Virus record (IMG/VR): IMGVR_UViG_3300021979_000001
Span: 162,948 to 226,947 of that record
Length of the DNA: 64,000 bases
Source: a virus
Taxonomy: Duplodnaviria > Heunggongvirae > Uroviricota > Caudoviricetes
Reading direction: 5' to 3' (one strand)
How positions within the stretch are numbered: the stretch's first letter is position 1; every line of letters begins with the position of its first letter. Shown here piece after piece: positions 263 through 28,714 of this stretch. Below the pieces are notes generated by a model. That model was given only the letters and a program-made list of their open reading frames with translations. It was not told the origin of the DNA and ran no database searches. A program made the position numbers and the translations under genes.

Positions 263-365
263 TTGATAAATAAAAATGAACGGTAATCATCGGGTGCCAC
301 CAACACCCAATGAGGCACCTCAAGGCGAAGTGTTGTCCCGTTCTAATGTATTTATCAAGGCGGGA
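263..365 (+). promoter_or_regulatory. late promoter ATAAATA (266-272) inside a three-way-junction leader abutting the tnpB RBS
   Basis: Perfect 10-bp inverted repeat ttgataaata(263-272)/tatttatcaa(349-358), inner stem gaacgg/ccgttc and two internal hairpins. RBS-like aaggcggga follows directly. Confidence 0.6.
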
Positions 366-368
366 ATA

Positions 369-1580
369 ATGACTTCCAATAAAGCATATAAATTACGGAT
401 ATATCCGACAAAACAACAAGCCGAATTGCTTAAGCAAATCGGTGGCAATTGCCGTTGGCTCTGGAATAAATTACTCGCTGATAACCAATCTCACTACACA
501 AAAACCAAAAAGTTCTTCTTTTACAAAGATATGTCTGCTTCACTACCAAGAATGAAGCAAGAAACCGAATGGCTCGGTGAGGCACCAGCCGTGTCCCTAC
601 AACGAGTTGCCAAGAACCTTGATACGGCTTTGAAGCAATGCTTCAAAGCCGGTAAAGGCTTCCCTCGCTTCAAAAAGAAATCAACCAATAAAGATTCATT
701 CTATATCACCAATCAGCAATTCGGTATCAAAGACAACAAGGTCAAAATACCGAAAGTGGGTTGGGTTAAATTCCGTGCTGGTTGCGTTCCTGTGGAACGC
801 ATCCTGTCAGCAACCGTATCTCAAGACGGCGACCACTGGTATTGCTCCGTCATGTGCGAGTATGAAACATCCGATTTGGTGGAACCAACCAATGCCATCG
901 GTATTGATTTGGGTTTGAACTATTTAATCACAACAAGTGATGGTGAGGTCGTTGATAACCCACGCCATTTACGTAAAGCAGAAAAGAAACTCACACGGAG
1001 ACAACGCCAGTTGTCTCGTGCCGAAAACAAAAGAAAGAAAAACGAAGGTAGAAAAAGAACTTCAAATAATTACCGCAAGAAACAACTGAAATTATATCGG
1101 TTGCACCGCAAGGTGCGAAACCAACGCAATGATTTCTTGCACAAACTAACAACGGAATTGATAGCCAATAATTCTGTTATTTGTCTGGAAGACCTCAACA
1201 TCAAAGGACTACACCGCACCCAATTAGCCAAATCCATATCGGATGTGGCATGGGGTGAATTGGTGCGTCAGTTGACCTACAAGGCTCACTGGTATGGTAA
1301 GCATATTGTCAAGATTGGACGATTTGACCCATCTTCACAAATTTGCTCTTGTTGTGGTCACAGACAAAAAATGTCTTTAGACAAAAGAACTTACGAATGC
1401 CCTTCTTGTGGGATGTCAATGGATCGGGATTTGAATGCCGCCATTAATATCAAAAATTGGGGAATAAACAAACTGGTAGGGCGAGGAACGCCCGAACCTT
1501 ATCAGGACGCTTTGCGTCCCGATAATACGCCTGTGGATGATACCTCTGACGGGGTTTATTCAGCACTTGCTGCTGAATAA
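369..1580 (+). CDS. tnpB: IS200/IS605-family RNA-guided endonuclease TnpB
   Basis: N-terminal AYKLRIYPT HTH; RuvC-I GIDLG; RuvC-II LEDL; Zn finger CSCCG..CPSCG; RuvC-III DRDLNAA. Start moved to ATG 369 (RBS upstream). Confidence 0.95.
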   Translation: MTSNKAYKLRIYPTKQQAELLKQIGGNCRWLWNKLLADNQSHYTKTKKFFFYKDMSASLPRMKQETEWLGEAPAVSLQRVAKNLDTALKQCFKAGKGFPRFKKKSTNKDSFYITNQQFGIKDNKVKIPKVGWVKFRAGCVPVERILSATVSQDGDHWYCSVMCEYETSDLVEPTNAIGIDLGLNYLITTSDGEVVDNPRHLRKAEKKLTRRQRQLSRAENKRKKNEGRKRTSNNYRKKQLKLYRLHRKVRNQRNDFLHKLTTELIANNSVICLEDLNIKGLHRTQLAKSISDVAWGELVRQLTYKAHWYGKHIVKIGRFDPSSQICSCCGHRQKMSLDKRTYECPSCGMSMDRDLNAAINIKNWGINKLVGRGTPEPYQDALRPDNTPVDDTSDGVYSALAAE

Positions 1581-4677: not shown

Positions 4678-4923
4678 TTGGTAGAATTATTTTCAGGCAT
4701 CATTGGTGCAATAATGGGTGGCGGACCAGAAGCAATGATTGCAATTCTGGTAGTGTTTGTCGTTTTATTGCTCCTAGACCGTCGCCGTTTGCTTGCTGAA
4801 ATCAAGCAAAAAGACGCTAAAGTTGAAAAGATCGTTGATGAATATTACAAAGGAAATTTAACGCTCACCGAGGCGTTGACATCCCTTAAACTCGTTTTAT
4901 TTGAGATTAAAGGGAAATTGTAA
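4678..4923 (+). CDS. small membrane protein (TM helix plus coiled coil; holin-like or adaptor)
   Basis: Hydrophobic AMIAILVVFVVLLLL followed by RRR; ATAAATA at 4634-4640. Confidence 0.75.
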   Translation: MVELFSGIIGAIMGGGPEAMIAILVVFVVLLLLDRRRLLAEIKQKDAKVEKIVDEYYKGNLTLTEALTSLKLVLFEIKGKL

Positions 4924-4924
4924 T

Positions 4925-5812
4925 ATGGTATGGTGGTTTTCAAAAAAGAAGCAGAAAGATAAATCTGATCGGGATTCACGTCATCAGGAAAAAATTATAT
5001 TAAGCCAGCTTGCCTTGTATTCTGCTGCATCTGATACAGCAGACGTTGCGCAAGATGTTACTAATTTACTTAAGTCCCGCCTGGAAGATACAATCTTGCA
5101 GTTTGAAACAACTGCACGCATTCTTAATGATGCATTGATCATCTGTGAAATGGACGGAACCATAGTTAGTTTTAACCCTGCTGCTGAACAAATTTTCGGA
5201 TATACCGCCGATACAATTATTGGAACACCGGTTCTGCCGCTGTTTAAACCATCACACAACACCGCTGGTAATCTTTGGGCTACCATCAATTACGAATCAA
5301 TTGCAAGCATCCCTGGGGTGCCCTTAAAAGAAGTTCGTGGTGTTCGTGCAAATGGTGAGGTTTTCCACATTGATGTTAATCATACCCGATTGGACAAATC
5401 CGATCATTCATCAATAATGTTAGTTTTAGTCCGGGATATATCCGAATTAATTGAAGCTAAAATCGAAACTAATGCGGCAAATGATCGGTATCAAACCGTT
5501 TTCAATAATAGTTTTGATGGAATATTGATTTTACAGGATGATAAAATCGTCGCAGCAAATCACACCATTAGTAATTTATTTGGATATTCCATCGATACGA
5601 TGTTAGAAAATCCTATTAATTTTCTGTTCGGTGATAAAAGTGAAACGCCATGCAGATTGCCGGTAGGTATATCCGAGCCAATTCATTTTGCACGGGAAGG
5701 CATTCATTCTGATGGTAGTAAAATAAAATTATTAATCACCACTAACAAAATAAAGTGGAATGGCACTGATGCTTGTTTAACGACAATAAAAGAAGTTTTT
5801 ACAAGCAAATAA
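4925..5812 (+). CDS. tandem PAS-domain protein without an output domain
   Basis: PAS1: DALIICEMDGTIVSFNPAAEQIFGY..RANGEVF..VRDIS. PAS2: FNNSFDGILILQDDKIVAAN..LFGY. Confidence 0.85.
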   Translation: MVWWFSKKKQKDKSDRDSRHQEKIILSQLALYSAASDTADVAQDVTNLLKSRLEDTILQFETTARILNDALIICEMDGTIVSFNPAAEQIFGYTADTIIGTPVLPLFKPSHNTAGNLWATINYESIASIPGVPLKEVRGVRANGEVFHIDVNHTRLDKSDHSSIMLVLVRDISELIEAKIETNAANDRYQTVFNNSFDGILILQDDKIVAANHTISNLFGYSIDTMLENPINFLFGDKSETPCRLPVGISEPIHFAREGIHSDGSKIKLLITTNKIKWNGTDACLTTIKEVFTSK

Positions 5813-7792: not shown

Positions 7793-8164
7793 TTTAAAAC
7801 CCTGTTTGTGTTGACGCCGGATACCTATCTACAAAGTGGGCATTAGGCAACTGCGTTTTAAGAGCAATATCTGCATGTCAACCTCCCAAAAAGGGTAGGA
7901 CAGTATACTATCATTTCATATATCATATGTTTTCAATATGTTATTAGTATGTGATGGCTGTCACAATTAAGAAAATATTTTTTCATACTGGAAAAACACC
8001 GGCTATTCCACACAACATCCCCGTGTGATTGAGGTTTTGCGGATAGATCAAAAATTGAAATAATTAAAAGATCAACGCAAAACATATGCGCAACAACCAC
8101 CCAACGATTTCGAATCGTGGATAACTTGTTGCACATGAAACTGTGTCAGACCGAAGTGATTTGT

Positions 8165-9310
8165 CTACTTTTGAAAAAAAACATTCATTGTATGAATGGA
8201 CGGCAACGAACATTTTTGTGCAATCGGCTTGGCAATCATATCCATTAATTTGCCATGTTGCTTTACTAACCGATTTCGAGCGGAAATCTGTTTTGTGGGT
8301 GATGCATCTTTCAGATCATACCATATAGTAGACGGGGGGCGGTGCATCAGATTAGTATGATGTTCCCAATTAGCAACCGATATGATTTCATCTTCCATCC
8401 CGGCTTGAATTGCCAGGTATAGCGCCGTTATCTGATCCAGTATTGGTGTTGAATCAAAATAAACGCACCCATATGACATCAACATCCCAGTCATATCATA
8501 TAATCGCAATTCGTATGGGATATGATCGAACTGATCTGGGTGATCTGCATTATCCAACAAACTTATATGTGTTCGCTTGATGCCGAATAGGTGTTTCCTG
8601 CCCGTGAAACGCACCTCCTGGAAGCACAGGAACGCATCTAGCATGTCAGACCCAATAATAGTTTTAACACCACGTATAGAGCGTTTTAAGACCTTTTGTG
8701 CGACACTTTTATTTGTGGGTTTATTATCAAACATGATTGTTTTTGGATAATGATTTTTAACCACATTTATATATTGACGATATGACGAAAAAACCGTCAT
8801 AGTTTCACGAAAACGTGCAACCATATCAATAAATTGTGCATCCCATTTCCGAATTTTATCCTGAATTACAAACGGTTCGGAAATGAAAGATGCAATTTCT
8901 TTTTTGGTCAACTTGCGATATTTTTTGTATTCCGGGAATTTCTTATCAGTGAAGTATTCCCAACGGTTATCATTAATCAAATTGGAAATATTAGATAATC
9001 CCATGGTTTTTTCGATGAACTGCACTGCACTTTTATATGCAATATTCGTTCTACGGTAATACAACTGATCATGAATAGTATTTGATGACATCACATCCGA
9101 TACAATAACAGACCGCTTCTCGATTGAAGCGGTCTGCCACCATTTCAGCATTTCATCGGTAAGATATGATATTGCATCAGGCATATCCATTACCAAATTC
9201 CAGTCAATATTGGGTTCTGCAATTGTCAACCACGACACCAAATCCGGCGTGATTTCTAACAGTTCAATCGAACTATCCACAACATAACGGACATCATGTG
9301 GTAATGGCAT
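8165..9310 (-). CDS. hypothetical protein with C-terminal Cys motif (GCVYF..P..DQ..AL.L....E.E...AN); partner of the GG-terminated protein
   Basis: 381-aa ORF starting 7 nt after the upstream stop. Confidence 0.75.
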   Translation of the reverse strand: MPLPHDVRYVVDSSIELLEITPDLVSWLTIAEPNIDWNLVMDMPDAISYLTDEMLKWWQTASIEKRSVIVSDVMSSNTIHDQLYYRRTNIAYKSAVQFIEKTMGLSNISNLINDNRWEYFTDKKFPEYKKYRKLTKKEIASFISEPFVIQDKIRKWDAQFIDMVARFRETMTVFSSYRQYINVVKNHYPKTIMFDNKPTNKSVAQKVLKRSIRGVKTIIGSDMLDAFLCFQEVRFTGRKHLFGIKRTHISLLDNADHPDQFDHIPYELRLYDMTGMLMSYGCVYFDSTPILDQITALYLAIQAGMEDEIISVANWEHHTNLMHRPPSTIWYDLKDASPTKQISARNRLVKQHGKLMDMIAKPIAQKCSLPSIHTMNVFFQK

Positions 9311-9316
9311 AACTGT

Positions 9317-9682
9317 TTACCCTCCGCGTAATGGTCTGGTCACAATGGTGCTGGATTGTGCAATTTCATCGGCATCTGATGACCGTTTTACCGTATCAGA
9401 GCGAATGTTACTGTGCGGTTTTGATGCGGAAATACGCCCCGCTGTAAAAAGCTGACTCATGATATTTTCATCGTCAAAAACAATACTTCGTTTGGTCAGC
9501 TTATCAACCGATGTCAGCTTCGTTTTGACTGTTACTTTATTATCATGTAACGTTTCCATAATAAAGAACACATATCCTTTATCGAGTAGGGATTGGATGG
9601 CAAGTTTCATATCGCCATCCACCTCCCGCTCCCAAGTGATGGTGGTATCACCCGAACCATCCAAAAAAGTCATCGTTCTCAT
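9317..9682 (-). CDS. small ubiquitin-like candidate ending in PLRGG
   Basis: RBS GGGAG before ATG 9682; beta-beta-alpha-beta..beta-like pattern; C-terminus IVTRPLRGG*. Confidence 0.7.
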   Translation of the reverse strand: MRTMTFLDGSGDTTITWEREVDGDMKLAIQSLLDKGYVFFIMETLHDNKVTVKTKLTSVDKLTKRSIVFDDENIMSQLFTAGRISASKPHSNIRSDTVKRSSDADEIAQSSTIVTRPLRGG

Positions 9683-9762
9683 AAATTCGACTCCCACAAG
9701 TTTTCAATTACAAGACTAAACACTATCAGTCATGTGGTTCAACAACAACCATAATATTAATA

Positions 9763-10971
9763 TTATTTGTAGTCTTCCCAATTAATATTACCAAAAACAG
9801 AGCGCATATTATCTATGTGCGTGCTGTTATTTTGTTGACCGATTTTCCAAAAAGCAAGATCAATGATATTACCCCCATCGTATTCACACCAGAACATTCC
9901 GCCCAACAAGTTGTTGATTTTGCGTAATTCTTTCAATTCCGGCATTGCTGCAACTGATTTCCGGTCACCTGGATGACGTTCTTTAGCTACCTGGACAGCA
10001 TCACGAACCCGTTTAACGGATTTGCCAATTTCCGCATAAAAATCTGTTTCAAATGCTTCCACTTTCTGGCGAACACCATCAACGAACAGGGGACGAGCAT
10101 CATCCATATTGCCATGCACAATCAATCGAACTATGTTTTTTTCATTATTGATGATGTCGTATGATGACGACAACTCACAATACCATTCCGATTTCATTTT
10201 GATCATGTGTCCATCATCAAAACGAATGACAATCCCTTCTTCATCGCGGGCAGTCTTAATGACATTAATCAATTTGTTAATATCAGTCACCCGATGTGAT
10301 ACTGCTTTGATTAGAGGGATACTCGGGTAACGAGAGATTAGTGTTTGCATGTCATCATAAGACCAATACTTGCCGCTTTCTAGTTCGCGAACCGCAGTCA
10401 AAACTAATTTGTCTTCGCCATACGCAAGAACAATTCTGTTGAACGGGGAACACCATTCAAAAATTGGCATTGCACCTTGTTTTTGTAATTCTGCCACAAA
10501 TTCGTCATAGATCGGGTGTTTTTCAACAAATTTGCTCGCCTGGTTGCTCACATCACTAATACCGCGTTTGGTTGACCACACGATACCCGTATCCAAATAC
10601 AATGGTGACACCATACTACCGTCAATTTTTTCCAAGACAATATGCGGCTTGGTGAAATCAATCGTATCTGATTTAGTTTCTGATTTCTCATTGAGATTAA
10701 AAAACTTGTGGTATCTACGACCAACCAATTTCCCGTTGGGATCAAATATCAGACCACGACATTCCCGCAAAATAGCGTAGTTTCGATCTAATTCCGGGTC
10801 ACCCGTCGTCGGCGATGGAAATGATTCATCGCACACAAAATTATAGCTAGAAACAATGTAATCTCCTTTATTATATATCGAGAAACATGGAGATTGTAGC
10901 GTTTTGTTAACCGCATCGATTGCAGTTTGCACATCTTCCAGGGTTAAATTGGTAGGAAAATCATAATTCAT
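9763..10971 (-). CDS. rnlA: T4 Rnl1-family RNA ligase
   Basis: RECRGLIF, YHKFFNLNE, motif I EKIDGS, FEW, EGIVI, KMK. Confidence 0.92.
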   Translation of the reverse strand: MNYDFPTNLTLEDVQTAIDAVNKTLQSPCFSIYNKGDYIVSSYNFVCDESFPSPTTGDPELDRNYAILRECRGLIFDPNGKLVGRRYHKFFNLNEKSETKSDTIDFTKPHIVLEKIDGSMVSPLYLDTGIVWSTKRGISDVSNQASKFVEKHPIYDEFVAELQKQGAMPIFEWCSPFNRIVLAYGEDKLVLTAVRELESGKYWSYDDMQTLISRYPSIPLIKAVSHRVTDINKLINVIKTARDEEGIVIRFDDGHMIKMKSEWYCELSSSYDIINNEKNIVRLIVHGNMDDARPLFVDGVRQKVEAFETDFYAEIGKSVKRVRDAVQVAKERHPGDRKSVAAMPELKELRKINNLLGGMFWCEYDGGNIIDLAFWKIGQQNNSTHIDNMRSVFGNINWEDYK

Positions 10972-11131: not shown

Positions 11132-11971
11132 ATGGCACCGGATTATTTAGATATAGATTATTTGCGTAGTTTGGATGTTGCCCCGGAGTCATTTGGGCTT
11201 GGGTTTATCCAACTGAAATTATCCAAAACGAGCAAAGTCAATTTTTGGGATGTCGCATCCCTTCTAACCGTGGACCAAGAAGATTTTCATACACATCCGT
11301 ATGATTTCACATCCACTATAATTGCGGGGTCCATAACCCACGAAACTGCAATCGTTACCAACGAAACCACGATTACCAATGAAAACAGCAAGCAACCATA
11401 TGGTTATTTACAATTCAAAACCGGATGTTGCCCTGGTAGTAAAGCAATCCTTGATGCAAATATTGATTTGTTATCATTGGGGAAAACAACACTGTCCGTT
11501 GGTTCAAAATATGACTTTCACCATACCATGTATCATCGTGTTCTAAAGGCATATGGTATCACCCATGTGACTAAAGGGAAAAAAGTAGAAGAATATGCCA
11601 AGATTGCAATTAAAACCGAAACCAAATTAAGCAACGCATTTGCAAACCAGTTGACAACAAAAGAATGCTGGGAACGAATTGAACAGATTATTTCACCATT
11701 TTTACCGGCAGAGTTTGAAACCCATCCAGGGTATCATCTAACCAAGATTGCTAAAGGACAGATTGGTGATGTATCAAAAATCGTGGAAGAATGTAATGAA
11801 TTGGTAGATGCCGCCGCGCAAGGTGCAAACATAATGATTTTGCATGAACTGTCCGATATTCATGGTGCAATGGAACTATATTTAAATAAACATCACCCAT
11901 CCTTATCAATCACTGATTTGGGTGTTATGTCTACCATCACCCAACGCGCTTTCACAAATGGGAGACGATAA
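11132..11971 (+). CDS. cupin-like domain fused to a HisE/MazG-like NTP pyrophosphohydrolase domain
   Basis: N-terminal FGLGFIQ..FHTHPYDF.S..I.G..E..YHRV (HxH..H). C-terminal SKIVEECNELVDA..ELSD (EExxE..ExxD). Confidence 0.7.
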   Translation: MAPDYLDIDYLRSLDVAPESFGLGFIQLKLSKTSKVNFWDVASLLTVDQEDFHTHPYDFTSTIIAGSITHETAIVTNETTITNENSKQPYGYLQFKTGCCPGSKAILDANIDLLSLGKTTLSVGSKYDFHHTMYHRVLKAYGITHVTKGKKVEEYAKIAIKTETKLSNAFANQLTTKECWERIEQIISPFLPAEFETHPGYHLTKIAKGQIGDVSKIVEECNELVDAAAQGANIMILHELSDIHGAMELYLNKHHPSLSITDLGVMSTITQRAFTNGRR

Positions 11972-12576
11972 TGAATATCAAATCATTATCACGCATTGTC
12001 GAGACAGCTACCTTTTTTCGTAACCTAAATTATGTCGAAATTGAATTGCCTTGGACCGCATCAAAGGCGGCAATGGAAACGACGATTGATCTGACACATG
12101 TCATGTCGTTATCATGCAACGGGGCTGATTATGGATTATTGGTTGGGTCTGCCGAACAGGCTTTTATCCAAAAGATGATTGATGGTGAATTATCGCCTGG
12201 GAAATATCAATCATTCACCCCCTGTTTCCGTCCTGATCCGGTGGATGAATTGCATCAGACTTATTTTACTAAGTTGGAATTGTGTGAACTTGTTTCACAT
12301 AAGACCGATATGGACGAATGCCAACATCGATTGGATTATATTACCCGGTGTTGTCGGGGAAATTTCACACGATTGGTGCGCGATGATGGTTTTGATGATC
12401 CGAATGTTGTTCACATCGTCAAAACACACGCTGGGTATGACATCGAAATCAACAATATTGAGATCGGTTCATATGGGATTCGCCAATTTGGCAAATTTAC
12501 ATGGATTTATGCTACTGGGATAGCTGAACCCCGTTTTGGCAAAGCGGTTTCCCAACTCCAATATATACCGGCTTGA
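11971..12576 (+). CDS. minimal class II aminoacyl-tRNA-synthetase-like catalytic domain
   Basis: GSAEQ; motif 2 TPCFR..DELH..YF.KLE; IEIGSYG; motif 3 GIAEPRF; no anticodon-binding domain; TAATG overlap with the upstream gene. Confidence 0.8.
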   Translation: MNIKSLSRIVETATFFRNLNYVEIELPWTASKAAMETTIDLTHVMSLSCNGADYGLLVGSAEQAFIQKMIDGELSPGKYQSFTPCFRPDPVDELHQTYFTKLELCELVSHKTDMDECQHRLDYITRCCRGNFTRLVRDDGFDDPNVVHIVKTHAGYDIEINNIEIGSYGIRQFGKFTWIYATGIAEPRFGKAVSQLQYIPA

Positions 12577-13297: not shown

Positions 13298-13882
13298 TTA
13301 CAATTCACTACGACTGGAAACAACTTTGTCAATGATGCCATATTCCAACGCATCATGTGCGGACAAGAATTTATCTCGTTCCATGTCGTTCAATACCGTT
13401 TCATAATCTTTGCCGGTATTTTCAGCCATCATCGTTGTGAGGCGATGTTTCAGACGTTCCCCTTCTTTCAGGGAAATAAACTGATCAGTGATTTTGCCTT
13501 GGGTGCCGGATGACGGTTGATGAATCATTACGGTCGAGTCGAGAAGCGCGATACGATGCCCTTTGGTCCCGCAAGATAGGAACATCGCCCCCATGGACAT
13601 CGCCGAACCGGTAACCACCGTAACAATCGTGTTCTTGACAAATCGCATGGTATTGATCACGGCCAAACCATCATAAACCGATCCACCCGGCGAGTTAATA
13701 TACATATAAATTGGTTTTTCCGGGTCTTCGGCTTCAAGATGCAATAATGATGCCGTAATAACGGATGCCATCCGCGTTTCAACTACACCATCAACAAAAA
13801 TGATGTTTTCTTTCAGAAGCCGCGAATAGATGTCATATGACCGTTCGTTATGACCATCATTGGTAACTACTATTGGAATCAT
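13298..13882 (-). CDS. clpP: ATP-dependent Clp protease proteolytic subunit
   Basis: DIYSRLLKENIIF, YINSPGG; catalytic triad in AMSMG, MIHQP, ERDKF. Confidence 0.97.
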   Translation of the reverse strand: MIPIVVTNDGHNERSYDIYSRLLKENIIFVDGVVETRMASVITASLLHLEAEDPEKPIYMYINSPGGSVYDGLAVINTMRFVKNTIVTVVTGSAMSMGAMFLSCGTKGHRIALLDSTVMIHQPSSGTQGKITDQFISLKEGERLKHRLTTMMAENTGKDYETVLNDMERDKFLSAHDALEYGIIDKVVSSRSEL

Positions 13883-14219: not shown

Positions 14220-15473
14220 TTATTTCCGGTGATCTTCGTATACCGCCGTTACCCCAAATGGAGACTGCGGGGCATTTTCCCCATACACGACAAATAACGT
14301 TTCGCAATAATCTGGGTCGCCCCAACCAGAACAAGGGTATCCGTCGGTAAAGAAAATCAACCGTTCCGGGCGAATTTCCTTTTCCTTCATGAACGCCCAG
14401 TTAACATTAAAATCGGTGCCACCGCCCCCTTGCATTTTGTAATCCACAATTTCTGACAAATTGGTTTCATCGTATTCTGTGAAACCATATACTTTCGTAT
14501 CAAAGGTCCACAATTTTACTTTTGCCTGTGAAAAGGTTTCCAGAATCCCTTTCGTTTCCGTCAAGAAATCGGTCAACATTTCCTGGGTCATTGATCCGCT
14601 TGTATCAATCGTGATACAAACATCAATCGTATTTTGGAAATTTTGCGCTGGCAACCGAACACCCGGCAACGCCCAATTCCGACGACTGAAACGGGTATAG
14701 GTATAATCGTCTTTTACTGCGGACCGAAAGGTCTGCTCCAACATGGTCCGCCAGTCAAGTTGCGCGTCACCCAACTCGTCAATCATCCGTGCAACGCCAA
14801 GCGGATAATCACCCGCCTTGCTACTTGCAATTGCTTGCATCGTTGCGGCCCGCATATCATTGCGAATTTCCGCAATTTCATCCGCCGACAATTTTGGCGG
14901 ACCATTTTCTCCGATGACAGTGATGGTTCCGTTGTTGGTCCCATCTTTATTACTGTCACCGTTATTGCCACCGTCTCCGGCCCCAAAATCGTGGTGTTCA
15001 TCCATTTCATCTTCGGGCCGAATAGTAACCGAATTTTGGATCAGAAGATCATAAATGGCTTCTGCACCCAATTCATCGGTATAGCGTTCGTCATACAGTG
15101 CCCCTTTGGGCATGACGCCAACACATCCTTTTTTTAAGGATTTCAATGCGGAATTGACCACATAATCGGTTGCCATGGCCCAAATTTTTGGATCACGTGA
15201 CCCACGCCGGTTGGCGTGATCATAAACCAGGTGCATTGTAATATGTGAAATTAAAAAAGAAACCCCACCCAGGCCATATTTTTCAACGGTTTTAATAATA
15301 AAATCACGGTTATAAAATAGCCGCCGCCCGTCTGATGTTATTGTTTTGCACCATTTCGATGCATCAACCTCGGTGAGCCGAATACTTAACTGCCCCAAGA
15401 ACGGATAATCGAATAGCATTTGAACTCGTGATGTAACAATTGCCCGGATTACAGGATCATCTTTTTCCATCAT
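14220..15473 (-). CDS. DUF2201-like metallopeptidase plus VWA protein (MoxR partner)
   Basis: TSDGRRLFYN, HITMH..DH, MIDAS motif DTSGS, GGGGTDF, FTDG. Confidence 0.9.
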   Translation of the reverse strand: MMEKDDPVIRAIVTSRVQMLFDYPFLGQLSIRLTEVDASKWCKTITSDGRRLFYNRDFIIKTVEKYGLGGVSFLISHITMHLVYDHANRRGSRDPKIWAMATDYVVNSALKSLKKGCVGVMPKGALYDERYTDELGAEAIYDLLIQNSVTIRPEDEMDEHHDFGAGDGGNNGDSNKDGTNNGTITVIGENGPPKLSADEIAEIRNDMRAATMQAIASSKAGDYPLGVARMIDELGDAQLDWRTMLEQTFRSAVKDDYTYTRFSRRNWALPGVRLPAQNFQNTIDVCITIDTSGSMTQEMLTDFLTETKGILETFSQAKVKLWTFDTKVYGFTEYDETNLSEIVDYKMQGGGGTDFNVNWAFMKEKEIRPERLIFFTDGYPCSGWGDPDYCETLFVVYGENAPQSPFGVTAVYEDHRK

Positions 15474-20614: not shown

Positions 20615-22090
20615 TTAAAACTTAATTTTTTTAAGTTCTTCCAATTCTGAAATATACACTTGTTTTAATTTAGTGGGTGATTTCAGAATTGAAACATTAA
20701 GTTTTATATTTTTTTCCAGTTCGGCAATTTTATTTTTCACGTCCTGGGAAAATTCAACTGTCCATTTGTATGTGGCAAGATTTACGATTTTTTCTATTTG
20801 AGTGTCGTCAACGTTAATTTTTTTTGCAGTTGCTACTTTGGTAACATCCGCAACAACATCGGCCTTGTTTCCAAATTTTCCCAAACGTTGCGTGAATTTA
20901 TTGGTGAACAGCGCATCAATGCATTTCCAATATAACAATTCGTAATTATCATCCTTTACCAGTTTTTGATACCGGTTTGTATACCAGCCTAGACGCCAGT
21001 TAACAAATTCATAGATAAGGTCTTCGGGTGATGAATATTGTGAAATGGTCGTATAAGCCTGTTTTAAGGCCGTATATGCATCATTGCGCTGTTCCGGTGT
21101 CTGCGCCTTACGCAATTGTTCTTCCGCATCAGTGACCTTCGTGAGCGATCCCACCACAACAATGCGTTCCTTGGTCGTCTCACGCAATTTGAAGAATGTG
21201 ATTGCATCTTTTTCAGTCCAATCTTTAATTTGTCCGCGTTTAAAAGTCACCGTTATATCAATGTTTTCGGTTGACCGATCTGCAAACGTAACAAACTGCT
21301 TTTCTTCCTCCATGGAAATTAATCGTCTACGAAATTGCTCCACGGTCATCATTGGTGGAAGTTCGGTAATACGAATAGTGGTAGTGTTCACAATTTCACA
21401 ACTACCATAGAACGCCCATTGATTATCGCCGACTTTTTCAATTTTGGTGGCATACCGGTCAAATTTTGGTGGAAGCGACTTGATTTTATTTCCGGTTAAC
21501 GCATCTTGCGTTGCATTAATTAAGGCTTTGAGATCATGTGGTAGAATTTCAGTTGACCAACCAACCGCAACCCCTTTGATGCCGTTTAACAGCACAAGCG
21601 GAACTAACGGCAGAAAATGAACCGGTAAATAATTTGAGCCATCATAATTATCTTTTAGTGGCACTAAATTCAAATCTGCATAAAGCAATTTTTCTGCCGC
21701 TTTTGCTCGTCTGATTTCAGTATATCGGGGTGCCCCGATGCCTTCAACCGGTGCTACTCGATTACCAAATTGGCCCAATCCTTCCAGCAACGGGATATTG
21801 TTTTTAAACGGGGCACACAACAATCCAATCATGTTATTTGCCGACGCTTCCCCATGGTGATATAGCTTTTCATATCCCATAAGACCGGTCAGTGCGAAGG
21901 TTTTAAGTTTTTCAGCACGGTTGCGCACCAGCCATAATGCAGTGCGTTGTGCTTCTTTCATACCATCCAATACCAGAGGAATACCACGAGTATCGCAAAC
22001 ATAAATCGCATATTCTCGTGAACTGTCCAGTAGATACTTACTACCTGGGTGATCTTTATCATTTACAATATTCAGAAAATTAAACGTCAT
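20615..22090 (-). CDS. type IIA topoisomerase cleavage subunit (GyrA/ParC/gp52-like)
   Basis: DGMKEAQR, YHHGE, GQFG, APRYT (catalytic Tyr), GVAVGWST, ITELP. Confidence 0.95.
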   Translation of the reverse strand: MTFNFLNIVNDKDHPGSKYLLDSSREYAIYVCDTRGIPLVLDGMKEAQRTALWLVRNRAEKLKTFALTGLMGYEKLYHHGEASANNMIGLLCAPFKNNIPLLEGLGQFGNRVAPVEGIGAPRYTEIRRAKAAEKLLYADLNLVPLKDNYDGSNYLPVHFLPLVPLVLLNGIKGVAVGWSTEILPHDLKALINATQDALTGNKIKSLPPKFDRYATKIEKVGDNQWAFYGSCEIVNTTTIRITELPPMMTVEQFRRRLISMEEEKQFVTFADRSTENIDITVTFKRGQIKDWTEKDAITFFKLRETTKERIVVVGSLTKVTDAEEQLRKAQTPEQRNDAYTALKQAYTTISQYSSPEDLIYEFVNWRLGWYTNRYQKLVKDDNYELLYWKCIDALFTNKFTQRLGKFGNKADVVADVTKVATAKKINVDDTQIEKIVNLATYKWTVEFSQDVKNKIAELEKNIKLNVSILKSPTKLKQVYISELEELKKIKF

Positions 22091-23208: not shown

Positions 23209-25134
23209 TCACATACCAATCCATTCCTTGCGGTCACCCGCCCGATTTGAATTAAATAACAAATCTAACGTTTCGGCAAGCATACTAGATGTGTTTCCAT
23301 GTTCATCAATATAATATTCATTGATAATGGGCCGCAGTTTTGGATTTCCAATAACATGTTTCCAATCCGGCATTTTTAATGCTGCCAAACCTTTTGCTCG
23401 TGTGATTTCCCACCCTTTGAATTTATCCGGTTCAAACATATGATAATTATCATTATACCAATATTTTCGAGTTTTTCCCTTAACTGCAATAATTAATGGC
23501 GTATCAAAAATATAAATAAATGGTTCCTTGTTTTCATCGAATAATTCGGGCCATTGCAGAAAGAAAAAATTAACCAGCAATGCTGCGATATTTTTACCAT
23601 CTTCATCTGCATCGGTGCAGATATAAACCTTACCATACCGCAGGGTTGATCGATTAACACGCTGCCCTGGCACCAACCCAATTGCATTCATTATGTTTGC
23701 CAACGCGGCATTTTCCATCACTGTTTTCTTAGTTTGACCAAAAACGTTCAGAATTTTACCACGTAATGGCAATCCACCATGAATGTCTGGATTTCGAGCC
23801 TCCACCATCCCGGAAATAGCAGATTTCCCTTCACCCAGAAACAGAATCGATTTAGAACGGTCGCGACCACAGGCATCATCTAAATCTTCAATCTTGACCC
23901 GTAAATTTTGCTTTGCCAGGCGATTGACATCACGTGCATCTTGTTTCTGTGTCCGTATTGCACATCGTTCATAGATACGTTCAATCCAGGCTGGGTTATT
24001 CTTGATTATCTTTTTGAAAAATTCAGCATCAGCCATATGGTGTCGAACAACCGAAATCACCCATTCATTGATTAACCGGGTTTTTGATTGTGAGTCAAAA
24101 CTTGGGGCATCCATTTCGGTTACGTTGAAAAGTAGCATTCCGCCAGAAATATCACTACGATTGGGTGACAAATTCTTTCGGCTTCTGTCTTTTTTCAATG
24201 CATCAACCAGCCCCGAATAAAATAGTTTACGAAATGAATCAACATGTGTCCCACCATTGAACACGGGAATGGCATTGACAATACTATGAACAAAATCGGT
24301 AGTTCCATCATCCATGAATTCCGGGACCAAATAAAAATTTGAAAGAAATTTGGCTGTATCGGATTCAATAGTAATCTTGATTGGGTTATTGTTACCGAAA
24401 ATTGTCTTTTCGATGGATTGCTTTGCTTTTAATTGTTGACCATTATAAAAAATCTTTAATTTTGGATAAATCATCGCCACTTCAAACATACGCGACTTGA
24501 CCAGTTCTTCTGGCAAGATCAGATGTTTAAACACGTGTGATGATAACTTAAAATCGACTCTTGTTCCGGTCTGCTTGTTTGAATCGGGGAAAATAGTTGC
24601 ATCATTAATGTTAAGTTTATTCTTCTTCAAATCTTCACTAAACGATTGAGAAAAATGTTTTTTATCACGTCTGATCGAAATATTAAAAAATTCCGAACAA
24701 AAGTTAACAATCGATGCACCAACCCCGTTCAAACCACGGGTGGCCCCGCGATCATCCCCGAAATTTCTGCCCGCCTTGGTTTCAACCATCGCCGCAGTAG
24801 CGATATATTGCTTAATAGTTTTATCAAACGTGATCGGGATACCCCGGCCATTATCTGTAACCGAAAATACCATGGTTTCAGGGTCGTAAGTCACGTCTAT
24901 TCGGTTACCATGCCCTTCGGTTACAACTTCATCAAGTGCATTGTCCAGGATTTCTCGAAATGCAGTGAAAACAGCCGGAACCCAGGTCAGTTCACGAATT
25001 ACAGGGGTATCATTGTCGTAAAGCATAACCTCTTGTGTGTGCGGATCACGCGATCCCAGATACATTTCCGTCCTGATTCGTGCATGCTGATAATCATCTA
25101 ATACTGAAAATTCTTTTTCGCTCTTTGCGGTCAT
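23209..25134 (-). CDS. type IIA topoisomerase ATPase/TOPRIM subunit (GyrB/ParE-like)
   Basis: EILDNA.DE, DNGRGIP, GLNGVGA, EGKSA, PLRGK, DADEDG, KGL. Confidence 0.96.
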   Translation of the reverse strand: MTAKSEKEFSVLDDYQHARIRTEMYLGSRDPHTQEVMLYDNDTPVIRELTWVPAVFTAFREILDNALDEVVTEGHGNRIDVTYDPETMVFSVTDNGRGIPITFDKTIKQYIATAAMVETKAGRNFGDDRGATRGLNGVGASIVNFCSEFFNISIRRDKKHFSQSFSEDLKKNKLNINDATIFPDSNKQTGTRVDFKLSSHVFKHLILPEELVKSRMFEVAMIYPKLKIFYNGQQLKAKQSIEKTIFGNNNPIKITIESDTAKFLSNFYLVPEFMDDGTTDFVHSIVNAIPVFNGGTHVDSFRKLFYSGLVDALKKDRSRKNLSPNRSDISGGMLLFNVTEMDAPSFDSQSKTRLINEWVISVVRHHMADAEFFKKIIKNNPAWIERIYERCAIRTQKQDARDVNRLAKQNLRVKIEDLDDACGRDRSKSILFLGEGKSAISGMVEARNPDIHGGLPLRGKILNVFGQTKKTVMENAALANIMNAIGLVPGQRVNRSTLRYGKVYICTDADEDGKNIAALLVNFFFLQWPELFDENKEPFIYIFDTPLIIAVKGKTRKYWYNDNYHMFEPDKFKGWEITRAKGLAALKMPDWKHVIGNPKLRPIINEYYIDEHGNTSSMLAETLDLLFNSNRAGDRKEWIGM

Positions 25135-27445: not shown

Positions 27446-28714
27446 ATGAGTGGTGATAAAAACTTGCACTGTTCGTTTTGTGGTGAAGACGCCAATAACG
27501 TTCGCAAACTGATTGCTGGACCAGACGTTTACATTTGTGACCAATGCGTAACCCTTTGTCACAATATTATTTCTAACGAAGAAAAAATTAATGTAAGCAA
27601 CCTGTCAACCGAAGGATTTGAACCATCCGTTCCATCCCCCCGTAAGATTCGTGAATTTCTAGATCAATATGTTATCGGCCAGGATATGGCAAAAATAGCG
27701 GTATCAGTTGCGGTTTATAACCACTATAAACGATTGGAAAACCCAGTCGTCAATGATATTGAAATTGACAAATCAAATATAATGGTGCTTGGCCCTACTG
27801 GTAGTGGTAAGACTCTTATCGCACAATCGATTGCCAGAATGCTTGATGTGCCCTTTATTATTGCGGATGCCACTACATTAACAGAATCCGGCTACGTTGG
27901 TGACGATGTTGAAAGTATTGTCACGCGGCTCTTACAATCATGTAATTACGATGTTACAAAAGCCCAACGGGGTATTGTCTATATTGACGAAATCGACAAA
28001 AAAGGCAAAAAAGGTTCTGCTTCCAACAACCGGGATGTTTCAGGGGAAGGCGTTCAACAAGCCCTACTCAAACTGATCGAAGGAACCGAAGTTTTTATTC
28101 CGCCCCAGGGACCAAAAAAAGGTGGTGAAATGATTAAGTTCAACACCAAAGATATTTTGTTCATCGTAGCAGGTGCATTCGTTGGTATTGATAAAATCAT
28201 CGAAAAAAGCATTAATAAATCAAGTGGTATCGGCTTTGGTGCAGAAAAAGTTGGCAAAATTAAAATGTCACATGATGAATTGTTACAAAACCTGGAACCA
28301 GATCATTTCGTTCAATTTGGTATTATTCCTGAATTGGTGGGGCGGCTACCCGTTTTTGCCCCATTGACCGAACTTGATGCCGATACCATGATACGTATTA
28401 TGACTGAACCAAAAAATGCAGTAACAAAACAATTCAAAGCAATGTTCGCTCTTGAAAATATCGAACTGGTTTTCGAGGACGATGCTCTTACCGCAATATC
28501 CCAACAAGCACAAAAACGTAAAACCGGGGCACGTGGTATTCGTAGTGTTATTGAAAAGCATTTAATGAAATTACAGTATAATCTTCCCGATCTTAAAGAA
28601 GATGGTGTCACCAAAATCGTGATCAATAAAAAAACAATTGATGATGGCGAAGAACCAAAATTAGTTTTTACCAAACCCAAGAAAACTAAAAAATCAGAAA
28701 CCCCATCAAAATAA
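27446..28714 (+). CDS. clpX: ATP-dependent Clp protease ATP-binding subunit ClpX
   Basis: C4 Zn finger CSFC..CDQC, GPTGSGKT, GYVG pore loop, DEIDK, IGF loop, GARG. Confidence 0.98.
   Translation: MSGDKNLHCSFCGEDANNVRKLIAGPDVYICDQCVTLCHNIISNEEKINVSNLSTEGFEPSVPSPRKIREFLDQYVIGQDMAKIAVSVAVYNHYKRLENPVVNDIEIDKSNIMVLGPTGSGKTLIAQSIARMLDVPFIIADATTLTESGYVGDDVESIVTRLLQSCNYDVTKAQRGIVYIDEIDKKGKKGSASNNRDVSGEGVQQALLKLIEGTEVFIPPQGPKKGGEMIKFNTKDILFIVAGAFVGIDKIIEKSINKSSGIGFGAEKVGKIKMSHDELLQNLEPDHFVQFGIIPELVGRLPVFAPLTELDADTMIRIMTEPKNAVTKQFKAMFALENIELVFEDDALTAISQQAQKRKTGARGIRSVIEKHLMKLQYNLPDLKEDGVTKIVINKKTIDDGEEPKLVFTKPKKTKKSETPSK

What the first reader, a model, noticed from the sequence alone, without database searches (positions are those of the whole stretch)
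8165..9760. Candidate phage ubiquitin-like conjugation pair: LRGG-terminated protein plus Cys-motif partner
Seen: a two-gene unit with its own promoter-like TTGAAC..TAGTCT. Gene 1 (121 aa) reads strand (MTFL), GSGD, strand (TTITW), helix (MKLAIQSLLDKG), strand (YVFF), and a final strand (TIVTR) ending PLRGG-stop. That is the beta-grasp order, and the last four residues match ubiquitin. Gene 2 starts 7 nt later and has a C-terminal domain with GCVYF.STP.LDQ..AL.LA...E.E...ANW. Established: Ubl/ThiS/MoaD proteins are activated at a C-terminal GG and transferred via catalytic cysteines. No E1 (ThiF) or JAB gene is visible, but an adenylating enzyme (Rnl1) lies directly upstream and ClpX/ClpP/ClpS are in the window. 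Inference: an undescribed protein-tagging system, or a decoy against host Ubl-based defences. Caveat seen: the GG codons (GGA GGG) also form the Shine-Dalgarno of gene 2.
Basis: partly seen in the sequence, partly recalled or inferred. Interest (0 to 1): 0.85.

Follow-up and report, generated by a model that had tools for sequence, protein, structure and literature searches.

The report
Phage Gly-Gly-tail protein with cysteine partner
A giant phage encodes a small protein that always ends in Gly-Gly directly before a partner protein with one invariant cysteine in an E2/RWD-like domain; the pair recurs in hundreds of phage lineages without any activating enzyme, so it may be an undescribed minimal protein-tagging module, but its chemistry is unproven.

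Summary
On the minus strand of a 457-kb phage genome, gene 1 (9317-9682, 121 aa) ends PLRGG-stop. Gene 2 (8165-9310, 381 aa) starts 6 nt later and carries the reported Cys motif.

- **Gly-Gly end:** 118 of 120 listed homologues end in GG, encoded by many different Gly codons. The ribosome-binding-site explanation is rejected.
- **Partner residues:** Cys282 and Asn314 are invariant in 150 representatives, out of 787 clusters at 50% identity. Asp292 and Glu306 are 99% conserved.
- **Gene pairing:** in 17 of 17 loci gene 1 precedes gene 2.
- **Partner fold:** the C-terminal domain is modelled with pLDDT 96-98. It weakly but consistently resembles RWD/UEV/E2 folds, and the Cys sits right after strand 4.
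- **Missing enzymes:** no ThiF-type E1 and no JAB above cut-off in five complete jumbo-phage genomes.

What is not supported: a beta-grasp fold for gene 1. The only model is poor and looks ferredoxin-like. Neither gene shows any sequence link to Ubl or E2 families. The complex prediction gave only weak support.

Best reading (about 0.4): an E1-less Gly-tail/Cys-domain conjugation-like pair, closest in logic to E2-only CBASS.

Earlier scan notes describe similar phage pairs on other DNA. I could not link them to this family by sequence.

The parts
9317..9682 (-). Gene 1: 121-aa protein with an invariant C-terminal Gly-Gly. The family's tail consensus is [ST]-V-[AG]-V-[RK]-[PQ]-hydrophobic-x-G-G.
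   Evidence: ORF and translation. (154 homologues; 118 of the 120 listed end in GG; tail logo). (invariant G11 W17 G36 F39 D71 G121).
9317..9325 (-). GGA GGG TAA: the two terminal Gly codons and the stop. They overlap the Shine-Dalgarno-like GGAGGG of gene 2.
   Evidence: Gly codons differ among 14 loci, so the conservation is at the protein level.
8165..9310 (-). Gene 2: 381-aa partner protein, made of an N-terminal all-helical domain plus a C-terminal Cys domain.
   Evidence: (787 representatives at E<=1e-3). (AF2 model, mean pLDDT 81.5).
8741..9310 (-). Gene 2 residues 1-190: helical N-terminal domain. It is conserved only in the long forms and is absent or replaced in the 235-310-aa homologues.
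   Evidence: helices 5-186. (short homologues match only profile positions about 180-340).
8336..8722 (-). Gene 2 residues 197-325: the conserved core domain. Its order is helix-helix, four-strand meander, Cys, two helices, which is UBC/RWD/UEV-like.
   Evidence: pLDDT 96-98. (FANCL Z 4.5, VPS37A UEV-like Z 4.4, GCN2 RWD Z 4.1 and 3.9, Knl1 RWD Z 4.0, RWDD2 Z 3.8). (canonical and bacterial E2s at Z 2.1-2.7 over about 94-110 residues). (alignment A7).
8465..8467 (-). Codon of Cys282 (TGC), the invariant cysteine immediately after strand 4.
   Evidence: the sequence reads gca on the plus strand. (150 of 150 conserved; also N314 100%, D292 and E306 99%, F227, P289 and G304 above 90%).
8075..8091 (-). 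Terminator-like hairpin 74 nt after the gene 2 stop; a possible end of the two-gene transcript.
   Evidence: It is a consensus match only, and terminator-like sites in the region are at chance level.
9713..9742 (-).
   Evidence: the sequence is present. (not scored by the scan; unverified).

Best explanation
This is a self-contained two-gene phage module. A small carrier protein presents a conserved, flexible C-terminal tail ending in a free Gly-Gly. The partner is a UBC/RWD-like domain with one invariant cysteine placed directly after its fourth strand.

The most likely mechanism has three steps:
1. The tail docks on the Cys domain.
2. The terminal glycine carboxylate is joined to Cys282 as a thioester.
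3. The glycine then stays on the partner or passes to a lysine of a phage or host protein.

No phage carrying the pair encodes a ThiF-type E1. Activation must therefore come from a host E1-like enzyme (MoeB/ThiF class, present in nearly all bacteria) or from the pair itself, as reported for the E2-only CBASS enzyme.

Shown here: the genes, the invariant GG and Cys, the pairing, the absence of E1 and JAB, and the predicted fold class of the Cys domain. Inferred: binding of tail to domain, any covalent bond, the energy source and the target.
For: - **GG end:** 118 of 120 listed homologues end in GG (the other two are one AG and one truncated) despite 20-51% identity to the query. All end exactly at GG, so no processing protease is needed.
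- **Protein-level constraint:** the Gly codons vary among loci.
- **Tail pattern:** hydrophobic residue at -4, basic at -6, alternating Val at -7 and -9. This resembles a Ubl last strand plus tail.
- **Partner residues:** Cys282 and Asn314 are invariant and Asp292 and Glu306 are 99% conserved in 150 representatives of a family of 787 clusters.
- **Pairing:** 17 of 17 loci have gene 1 upstream of gene 2 on the same strand. Fourteen are adjacent or overlapping. They come from jumbo phages, a Chelatococcus prophage, Prevotella-associated contigs and short-form variants.
- **Fold of the Cys domain:** pLDDT 96-98. All six rows of the fold search that map to this domain alone are UBC-superfold proteins (FANCL, UEV-like, four RWD; Z 3.8-4.5).
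- **E2 matches:** about ten canonical or bacterial E2 chains align over residues ~198-333 at Z 2.1-2.7. By linear interpolation of the aligned ranges, Cys282 falls within about five residues of the E2 catalytic Cys. That placement is my inference.
- **No E1 or JAB:** no ThiF and no JAB above cut-off in five complete jumbo-phage genomes. No recurring third gene in the neighbourhoods.
- **Complex prediction, weak support:** score 0.52, best of 3 controls 0.00. The mark was reached by 58 of 80 solved complexes and 2 of 110 mismatched pairs. At 0.60 or under it was reached by only 7 of those 80 and by both mismatches that passed. The runs agree in at least 2% of contacts, and the partner's pLDDT is at least 47.
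- **Precedent:** an E2 alone forms thioester and isopeptide bonds with the C-terminal Gly of its neighbouring CD-NTase (bioRxiv 10.1101/2022.05.25.493364; PMC12948482).
Against: - **Gene 1 fold:** no beta-grasp is shown. The shallow-alignment AF2 model (pLDDT 56.5) has a core that matches ferredoxin-like domains (UreE C-domain Z 5.2, rmsd 2.2 A, 58 residues) and no Ubl.
- **Weak fold scores:** all matches for the Cys domain are below Z 5, a level the tool itself warns can reflect a common arrangement only. Foldseek found nothing at E<=0.001 in the PDB.
- **No sequence link:** there are no Pfam, PHROG, NCBIfam or PADLOC hits. hhalign gave probability 0.6% against MoaD and 0.6% against Prok-E2_B.
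- **No HPN motif:** the only frequent His (H263, 70%) lies before strand 3.
- **Energy problem:** a free Gly carboxylate cannot form a thioester without an energy source, and none is encoded.
- **Weak docking:** the complex score is in the weak band and one of three runs scored 0.00.
Confidence: 0.4

Rival explanations
1. The two proteins form an obligate non-covalent complex. The tail inserts into a tight pocket of the partner where only glycines fit. The invariant Cys is structural, redox-sensing or metal-binding, and nothing is transferred.
For: - Strict pairing (17 of 17 loci) and the weak complex signal fit simple binding (score 0.52, best control 0.00, with the caveats given).
- RWD and UEV domains, the best fold matches, are non-catalytic binding modules.
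- No energy-providing enzyme is encoded.
Against: - A single Cys that is invariant in 150 of 150 representatives, together with invariant Asn and 99% Asp and Glu around it, looks like an active site rather than a packing residue.
- A terminal GG kept in 118 of 120 sequences, always exactly at the end, is the hallmark of carboxylate chemistry.
Confidence: 0.25
2. Gene 1 is a sulfur carrier of the ThiS/MoaD/TtuB type. A host E1 adenylates its Gly-Gly end, which is then converted to a thiocarboxylate. The partner's Cys relays a persulfide or uses the sulfur to thiolate tRNA, DNA or a cofactor.
For: - The mature GG end and the absence of E2, E3 and JAB genes are typical of sulfur carriers.
- ThiS/MoaD and hence their E1s are present in 41 of 41 sampled host-order genomes.
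- RNA-repair or tRNA genes lie nearby in three unrelated phages: Rnl1 here, RtcB in the Chelatococcus prophage, and a Thg1-like gene in Atu_ph07.
Against: - Gene 1 has no profile similarity to MoaD/ThiS (hhalign probability 0.6%; no Pfam ThiS hit in 117 members).
- The partner matches no sulfurtransferase, PP-loop, rhodanese or MoaE family.
- The nearby RNA genes are not conserved neighbours.
Confidence: 0.1
3. The pair is a counter-defence device. The Gly-Gly tail mimics the substrate of host Ubl-type defences (CBASS Cap2, Bil, Bub), and the Cys domain traps or diverts the activated intermediate.
For: - The pair is almost confined to phages: 1 of 401 sampled alphaproteobacterial genomes carries it, and that copy is in a prophage.
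- Such host systems act on C-terminal Gly residues.
- This phage carries a second, orphan copy of the Cys protein.
Against: - No direct evidence.
- The pair occurs in phages of very different hosts, most of which would lack these patchy defence systems.
- The tail and the domains show no sequence likeness to CD-NTase tails, BilA or Cap2 E2.
Confidence: 0.1
4. The terminal GG is a by-product of translational coupling. The GGN GGN codons are kept because they serve as the Shine-Dalgarno sequence of the next gene.
For: In the window GGAGGG lies 9-14 nt before the gene 2 ATG. Most loci have tightly coupled genes.
Against: - Codons such as GGC GGC, GGT GGT and GGT GGC make poor SD sequences, yet they still encode GG.
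- GG persists when gene 2 lies about 750 nt away or behind another ORF (L005, L014, L018).
- The preceding eight tail residues are conserved as well.
- Only 2 of 2256 frames in this densely coupled genome end in GG.
Confidence: 0.02

Closest known systems
E2-only CBASS (CdnG/cGAS plus stand-alone E2; Yan et al., bioRxiv 10.1101/2022.05.25.493364; Xiao et al. 2026, PMC12948482)
   Same: - A two-gene logic without E1 or JAB.
- The neighbouring protein's flexible C-terminal tail, with a conserved terminal Gly, inserts next to the catalytic Cys of a small E2-fold protein.
- The substrate need not be a beta-grasp protein.
   Different: - Gene 1 is a 121-aa protein, not a nucleotidyltransferase.
- There is no effector gene.
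- The module is phage-borne rather than part of a host defence.
- The Cys domain has no sequence similarity to CBASS E2 and lacks the conserved His pair. Its fold match to E2 is weak (Z 2.1-2.7).
- The tail ends exactly at Gly, so no peptide bond is available to drive transfer.
Bacterial Ubl conjugation operons (Bil ABCD, Bub/6E, type II CBASS Cap2/Cap3)
   Same: A small protein with a C-terminal Gly is encoded next to an E2-fold protein with a catalytic Cys. The setting is phage-host conflict.
   Different: - Those operons always include a ThiF-type E1 and usually a JAB peptidase. Here neither is found in five complete genomes.
- There are no PADLOC or Pfam hits.
- A beta-grasp fold is not shown for gene 1.
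ThiS/MoaD/TtuB/Urm1 sulfur carriers (Pfam PF02597)
   Same: Small proteins that end in a mature Gly-Gly, have no dedicated protease, and are encoded beside their using enzyme.
   Different: - No profile similarity (hhalign probability 0.6%).
- Gene 1 is longer, at 115-205 aa.
- The partner is not MoaE, ThiG or TtuA-like.
- No E1 is encoded by the phage.
RWD / UEV / FANCL-ELF domains (non-catalytic members of the UBC superfold)
   Same: These are the best structural matches for gene 2 residues 197-325 (Z 3.8-4.5). They have a compact helix, four-strand meander and helices, with a short loop after strand 4.
   Different: - Those domains lack a catalytic Cys. Here a Cys is invariant at exactly that loop.
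- There is no sequence similarity, and they are eukaryotic families.

Membership tests
Ubiquitin-like beta-grasp modifiers/carriers (ubiquitin PF00240, ThiS/MoaD PF02597) | Mature or processable C-terminal Gly-Gly (or Gly) at the end of a flexible tail | tested here: met
   118 of 120 listed homologues end exactly in GG; hydrophobic residue at -4.
Ubiquitin-like beta-grasp modifiers/carriers (ubiquitin PF00240, ThiS/MoaD PF02597) | Beta-grasp fold | tested here: inconclusive
   Only a 7-sequence AF2 model was available (pLDDT 56.5). Its core at residues 9-90 matches ferredoxin-like domains (UreE Z 5.2) and no Ubl. The order of secondary-structure elements is compatible with either fold.
Ubiquitin-like beta-grasp modifiers/carriers (ubiquitin PF00240, ThiS/MoaD PF02597) | Sequence or profile membership | tested here: not met
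   No Ubl family among the Pfam hits of 117 members. No PDB sequence hit. hhalign against a 25-sequence MoaD alignment gave probability 0.6%.
Ubiquitin-like beta-grasp modifiers/carriers (ubiquitin PF00240, ThiS/MoaD PF02597) | Cognate ThiF-family E1 encoded with it | tested here: not met
   PF00899 is absent from the window's own genome and from four other complete jumbo-phage records, while the control rang in 14 of 14 genomes. None was seen in 17 neighbourhoods.
Ubiquitin-like beta-grasp modifiers/carriers (ubiquitin PF00240, ThiS/MoaD PF02597) | Adenylation, thioester or thiocarboxylate formation at the terminal Gly | not testable with these tools
   Needs biochemistry.
E2 / UBC superfold (UQ_con PF00179, Prok-E2 families, RWD, UEV) | N-terminal helix, four-strand antiparallel meander, then helices | tested here: inconclusive
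   The model of residues 201-312 has this order at pLDDT 96-98. All six domain-only rows of the fold search are UBC-superfold proteins, but at Z 3.8-4.5. E2 chains score Z 2.1-2.7. Foldseek found nothing significant.
E2 / UBC superfold (UQ_con PF00179, Prok-E2 families, RWD, UEV) | Conserved catalytic Cys in the segment between strand 4 and helix 2 | tested here: met
   Cys282 follows strand 277-281 and precedes helix 290-302. It is invariant in 150 of 150. Its equivalence to the E2 Cys rests on topology and interpolated ranges, not on a residue-level superposition.
E2 / UBC superfold (UQ_con PF00179, Prok-E2 families, RWD, UEV) | HPN motif upstream of the Cys | tested here: not met
   There is no HPN. 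The only frequent His (H263, 70%) lies before strand 3.
E2 / UBC superfold (UQ_con PF00179, Prok-E2 families, RWD, UEV) | Sequence or profile membership | tested here: not met
   No E2, RWD or UEV Pfam family among 150 domain sequences; only weak DUF4754 hits in 11. hhalign against Prok-E2_B gave probability 0.6%.
E2-only CBASS | E2-fold Cys protein next to a protein with a conserved C-terminal Gly tail, with no E1 or JAB | tested here: met
E2-only CBASS | The tail-bearing protein is a CD-NTase, and an effector gene is present | tested here: not met
   Gene 1 is 121 aa with no nucleotidyltransferase family hit. PADLOC gives no hit for either protein.

The most novel reading that the evidence does not exclude
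The pair is a complete, E1-independent protein-tagging machine. The roughly 125-residue RWD/UBC-like Cys domain would itself capture the free Gly-Gly carboxylate of its neighbour and ligate it to phage or host proteins. That would be a minimal ancestor-like form of ubiquitin-type conjugation used by phages during infection.
Probability: 0.15. Interest if true: 0.9.

Novelty: new variant of a known kind. Interest (0 to 1): 0.7.

Why it matters
Ubiquitin-type conjugation in prokaryotes has so far been studied as a host defence (CBASS Cap2, Bil, Bub), and it always involves an E1.

Here a much smaller unit is conserved across hundreds of phage lineages, from 40-kb phages and a prophage to 490-kb jumbo phages. 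It consists of a Gly-Gly-tailed protein and a roughly 125-residue Cys domain, with no E1, no protease and no family annotation.

If the pair does covalent chemistry, it would show that phages carry their own tagging system. It would also make two questions testable: how little machinery such chemistry needs, and whether host E1s are hijacked.

Two members sit in cultured phages with tractable hosts: Atu_ph07 on Agrobacterium tumefaciens C58, and Phosso on Sinorhizobium meliloti. Even if the pair only binds non-covalently, it defines two large unnamed protein families with clear catalytic-looking invariants.

Tried and rejected
**Rejected explanations**
- The ribosome-binding-site artefact for GG is rejected on codon variety, spacing and the conserved tail.
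- Rnl1, ClpP and ClpX as parts of the unit are rejected, because they are not neighbours in any other locus.
- A conserved upstream ATPase acting as a hidden activating enzyme is rejected. The AAA protein of the Chelatococcus prophage and the VapE-like protein of the Prevotella contig are unrelated, and the other upstream genes have no family.

**Sequence and profile searches that gave nothing useful**
- Pfam, PHROGs, PADLOC and NCBIfam on both proteins.
- Pfam on ten long homologues.
- Profile searches of PDB sequences for gene 1, gene 2 and the Cys domain.
- hhalign of the gene 1 family against MoaD, and of the Cys domain against Prok-E2_B, both probability 0.6%.
- Fused forms: the gene 1 profile is absent from 149 gene 2 homologues. 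A search among longer proteins found none, which is weak evidence.

**Structure-based searches that gave nothing useful**
- Foldseek against the PDB for both models.
- BFVD returned only the Atu_ph07 orthologue.
- The ESM Atlas returned only unnamed stand-alone domains of about 140 aa.

- Scans of bacterial genome contigs failed for lack of a conserved pattern.
- Other scans found nothing, or only the Chelatococcus copy.

**Other limits**
The gene 1 fold therefore remains open.
- Literature searches found no description of the pair.
Full report
**What is there**

The window lies in a single 457,165-bp virus record. No close DNA relative is in the phage collection.

Two tightly packed genes sit on the minus strand:
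- Gene 1 is 9317-9682, 121 aa, starting MRTMTFLDGSGD and ending TIVTRPLRGG-stop.
- Gene 2 is 8165-9310, 381 aa, with its ATG 6 nt after the gene 1 stop.

The reported Cys motif is at residues 281-315 of gene 2. Rnl1 lies upstream, and ClpP and ClpX are elsewhere in the window. The proposed promoter hexamers exist, but the scan did not score them and promoter-like sites there are at chance level.

**Is the Gly-Gly end meaningful?**

Neither protein matches any family in Pfam, PHROGs, NCBIfam or PADLOC. Homologous pairs were first found in Sinorhizobium phage Phosso and Agrobacterium phage Atu_ph07, then in IMG/VR contigs.

- A profile search returned 154 gene 1 relatives. Of the 120 listed, 118 end exactly in GG, one ends in AG and one is truncated.
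- Identity to the query is only 20-51%.
- The last ten residues follow [ST]-V-[AG]-V-[RK]-[PQ]-hydrophobic-x-G-G.
- The two Gly codons differ freely among loci: GGA GGG, GGC GGC, GGC GGT, GGT GGT, GGT GGA, GGT GGC.
- GG is retained in three loci where gene 2 is not the next gene (L005, L014, L018).
- In this genome only 2 of 2256 frames of at least 60 aa end in GG.

**The partner**

An exhaustive profile search found 787 representatives at 50% identity (686 at E<=1e-10). In the best 150:
- Cys282 and Asn314 are invariant.
- Asp292 and Glu306 are 99% conserved.
- Phe227, Pro289 and Gly304 are above 90%.

Many homologues are short (235-310 aa) and share only the C-terminal 125 residues, so that domain is the conserved core.

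The AF2 model built from 150 sequences has mean pLDDT 81.5, and 96-98 over residues 201-320. The order of elements is two helices, a four-strand meander, Cys282 directly after strand 4, then two helices.

- A Foldseek-independent search of 48,161 PDB representatives gave six rows that map to this domain alone. All six belong to the UBC superfold: FANCL Z 4.5, VPS37A UEV-like Z 4.4, GCN2 RWD Z 4.1 and 3.9, Knl1 RWD Z 4.0, RWDD2 Z 3.8.
- Re-alignment of Foldseek's own list brought up about ten canonical E2s and a bacterial E2 (8tz0_C). They cover residues ~198-333 over 94-110 residues, but only at Z 2.1-2.7.
- From the aligned ranges, Cys282 falls within about five residues of the E2 catalytic Cys. 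That is interpolation, not a residue-level alignment.

These Z-scores are weak by the tool's own standard, and there is no HPN motif. Profile comparisons to Prok-E2_B are null. I therefore call the domain UBC/RWD-like in fold class but not a member of any E2 family. Eleven of the 150 domains weakly hit the uncharacterised Pfam family DUF4754.

**Gene 1 fold**

This is the weak point. The only model was made from seven sequences (pLDDT 56.5). Residues 11-80 reach about 65-78, and the last 40 residues are disordered.
- Foldseek and the wide search match its core to ferredoxin-like domains, not to ubiquitin-like proteins: UreE C-domain Z 5.2, rmsd 2.2 A over 58 residues, plus EF-G domains and PII.
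- The order of secondary-structure elements, including the unmodelled first strand, is compatible with either fold.
- No Ubl family appears among the Pfam hits of 117 members.
- hhalign against MoaD gives probability 0.6%.

The beta-grasp claim is neither supported nor excluded. What is firm is a compact N-terminal domain followed by a conserved tail ending in GG.

**Pairing and context**

In 17 of 17 loci that I could read, a gene 1 homologue lies upstream of a gene 2 homologue on the same strand. Fourteen are adjacent or overlapping, and three have a small ORF or about 750 nt between them.

The loci come from:
- five jumbo phages of 345-490 kb;
- a Chelatococcus asaccharovorans prophage with RecT and exonuclease genes;
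- Prevotella-associated contigs with a VapE-like helicase;
- other metagenomic phages.

No third gene recurs. ThiF is absent from all five complete jumbo-phage records, and no JAB passes its cut-off.

The family is rare in bacterial chromosomes. One of 401 sampled alphaproteobacterial genomes has it, and that copy is the prophage. This phage also has a second, orphan copy of gene 2 outside the window. The other four jumbo phages have one copy of each gene. No fused forms were found.

**Do the two proteins bind?**

The complex prediction gave weak support.
- The score was 0.52, and the best of 3 controls was 0.00.
- The mark was reached by 58 of 80 solved complexes and 2 of 110 mismatched pairs.
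- At 0.60 or under, it was reached by only 7 of those 80 and by both mismatches that passed.
- The runs agree in at least 2% of contacts, and the partner's pLDDT is at least 47.
- One run of three scored 0.00, and no interface was reported.

**Interpretation**

The best-supported reading is a minimal two-component module in which the GG tail engages the Cys domain, probably with carboxylate chemistry at Cys282.

The closest known logic is E2-only CBASS. There, a stand-alone E2 forms thioester and isopeptide bonds with the conserved C-terminal Gly of its neighbouring CD-NTase, without E1 or JAB, and the substrate is not a beta-grasp protein (bioRxiv 10.1101/2022.05.25.493364; PMC12948482).

The main difficulty is energy. 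The tail ends at a free carboxylate and no activating enzyme is encoded. A host MoeB/ThiF-type E1 or an unknown activity would be needed. ThiS/MoaD was found in 41 of 41 sampled genomes of one host order.

The rivals are:
- a purely non-covalent complex;
- a sulfur-carrier system that borrows the host E1;
- a counter-defence decoy.

None is excluded.

**Novelty**

I found no description in the literature searched, including the jumbo-phage comparative survey PMC7824862.

Earlier notes of this scan describe phage GG-tail plus invariant-Cys pairs, and a mini E2/RWD-like Cys domain, on other DNA. Sequence look-ups did not connect them to this family. I cannot say whether they are the same family.

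Noticed in passing
G000:C1:253559-254731 (minus strand; about 27 kb beyond the window's end): A second, orphan copy of the gene 2 family (391 aa). It keeps Cys, Pro, Asp, Gly-x-Glu and Asn. The 181-aa ORF upstream does not end in GG and does not match the gene 1 profile. The four other jumbo phages checked have a single copy.
   Followed up: partly
window 9766-10971 (-); L009 12772-14136; L002 7147-7935: RNA-repair or tRNA genes lie within a few kb of the pair in three unrelated phages: Rnl1 here, RtcB in the Chelatococcus prophage, and a tRNA-His guanylyltransferase in Atu_ph07. They are not conserved neighbours elsewhere, so this may be coincidence.
   Followed up: partly
window 276-1577 (+): A TnpB/IS605 OrfB-type protein (OrfB_IS605, Cas12f1-like TNB and HTH domains) inside a jumbo-phage genome.
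   Followed up: no
window 13301-13882 (-), 27446-28711 (+), 14223-15473 (-): Phage-encoded ClpP and ClpX, plus a DUF2201 metallopeptidase/VWA-like protein next to ClpP.
   Followed up: no
window 20618-22090 (-) and 23212-25134 (-): Type II topoisomerase subunits (GyrA-like and GyrB-like). They place the pair in an early or replication-type region.
   Followed up: no
window 4901-5809 (+): A 303-aa protein with two PAS domains, an unusual sensor-type protein for a phage.
   Followed up: no
window 11971-12573 (+): A 201-aa protein with a sub-threshold match to the class II aminoacyl-tRNA synthetase core (PF00152, 22.2 bits against a cut-off of 25).
   Followed up: no
gene 2 family, alignment A7: 11 of 150 Cys domains weakly match the uncharacterised Pfam family DUF4754 (best E 2.8e-4). 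The ESM Atlas holds stand-alone 138-144-aa proteins with the same predicted fold in Chloroflexota and phages (TM 0.63-0.70).
   Followed up: partly
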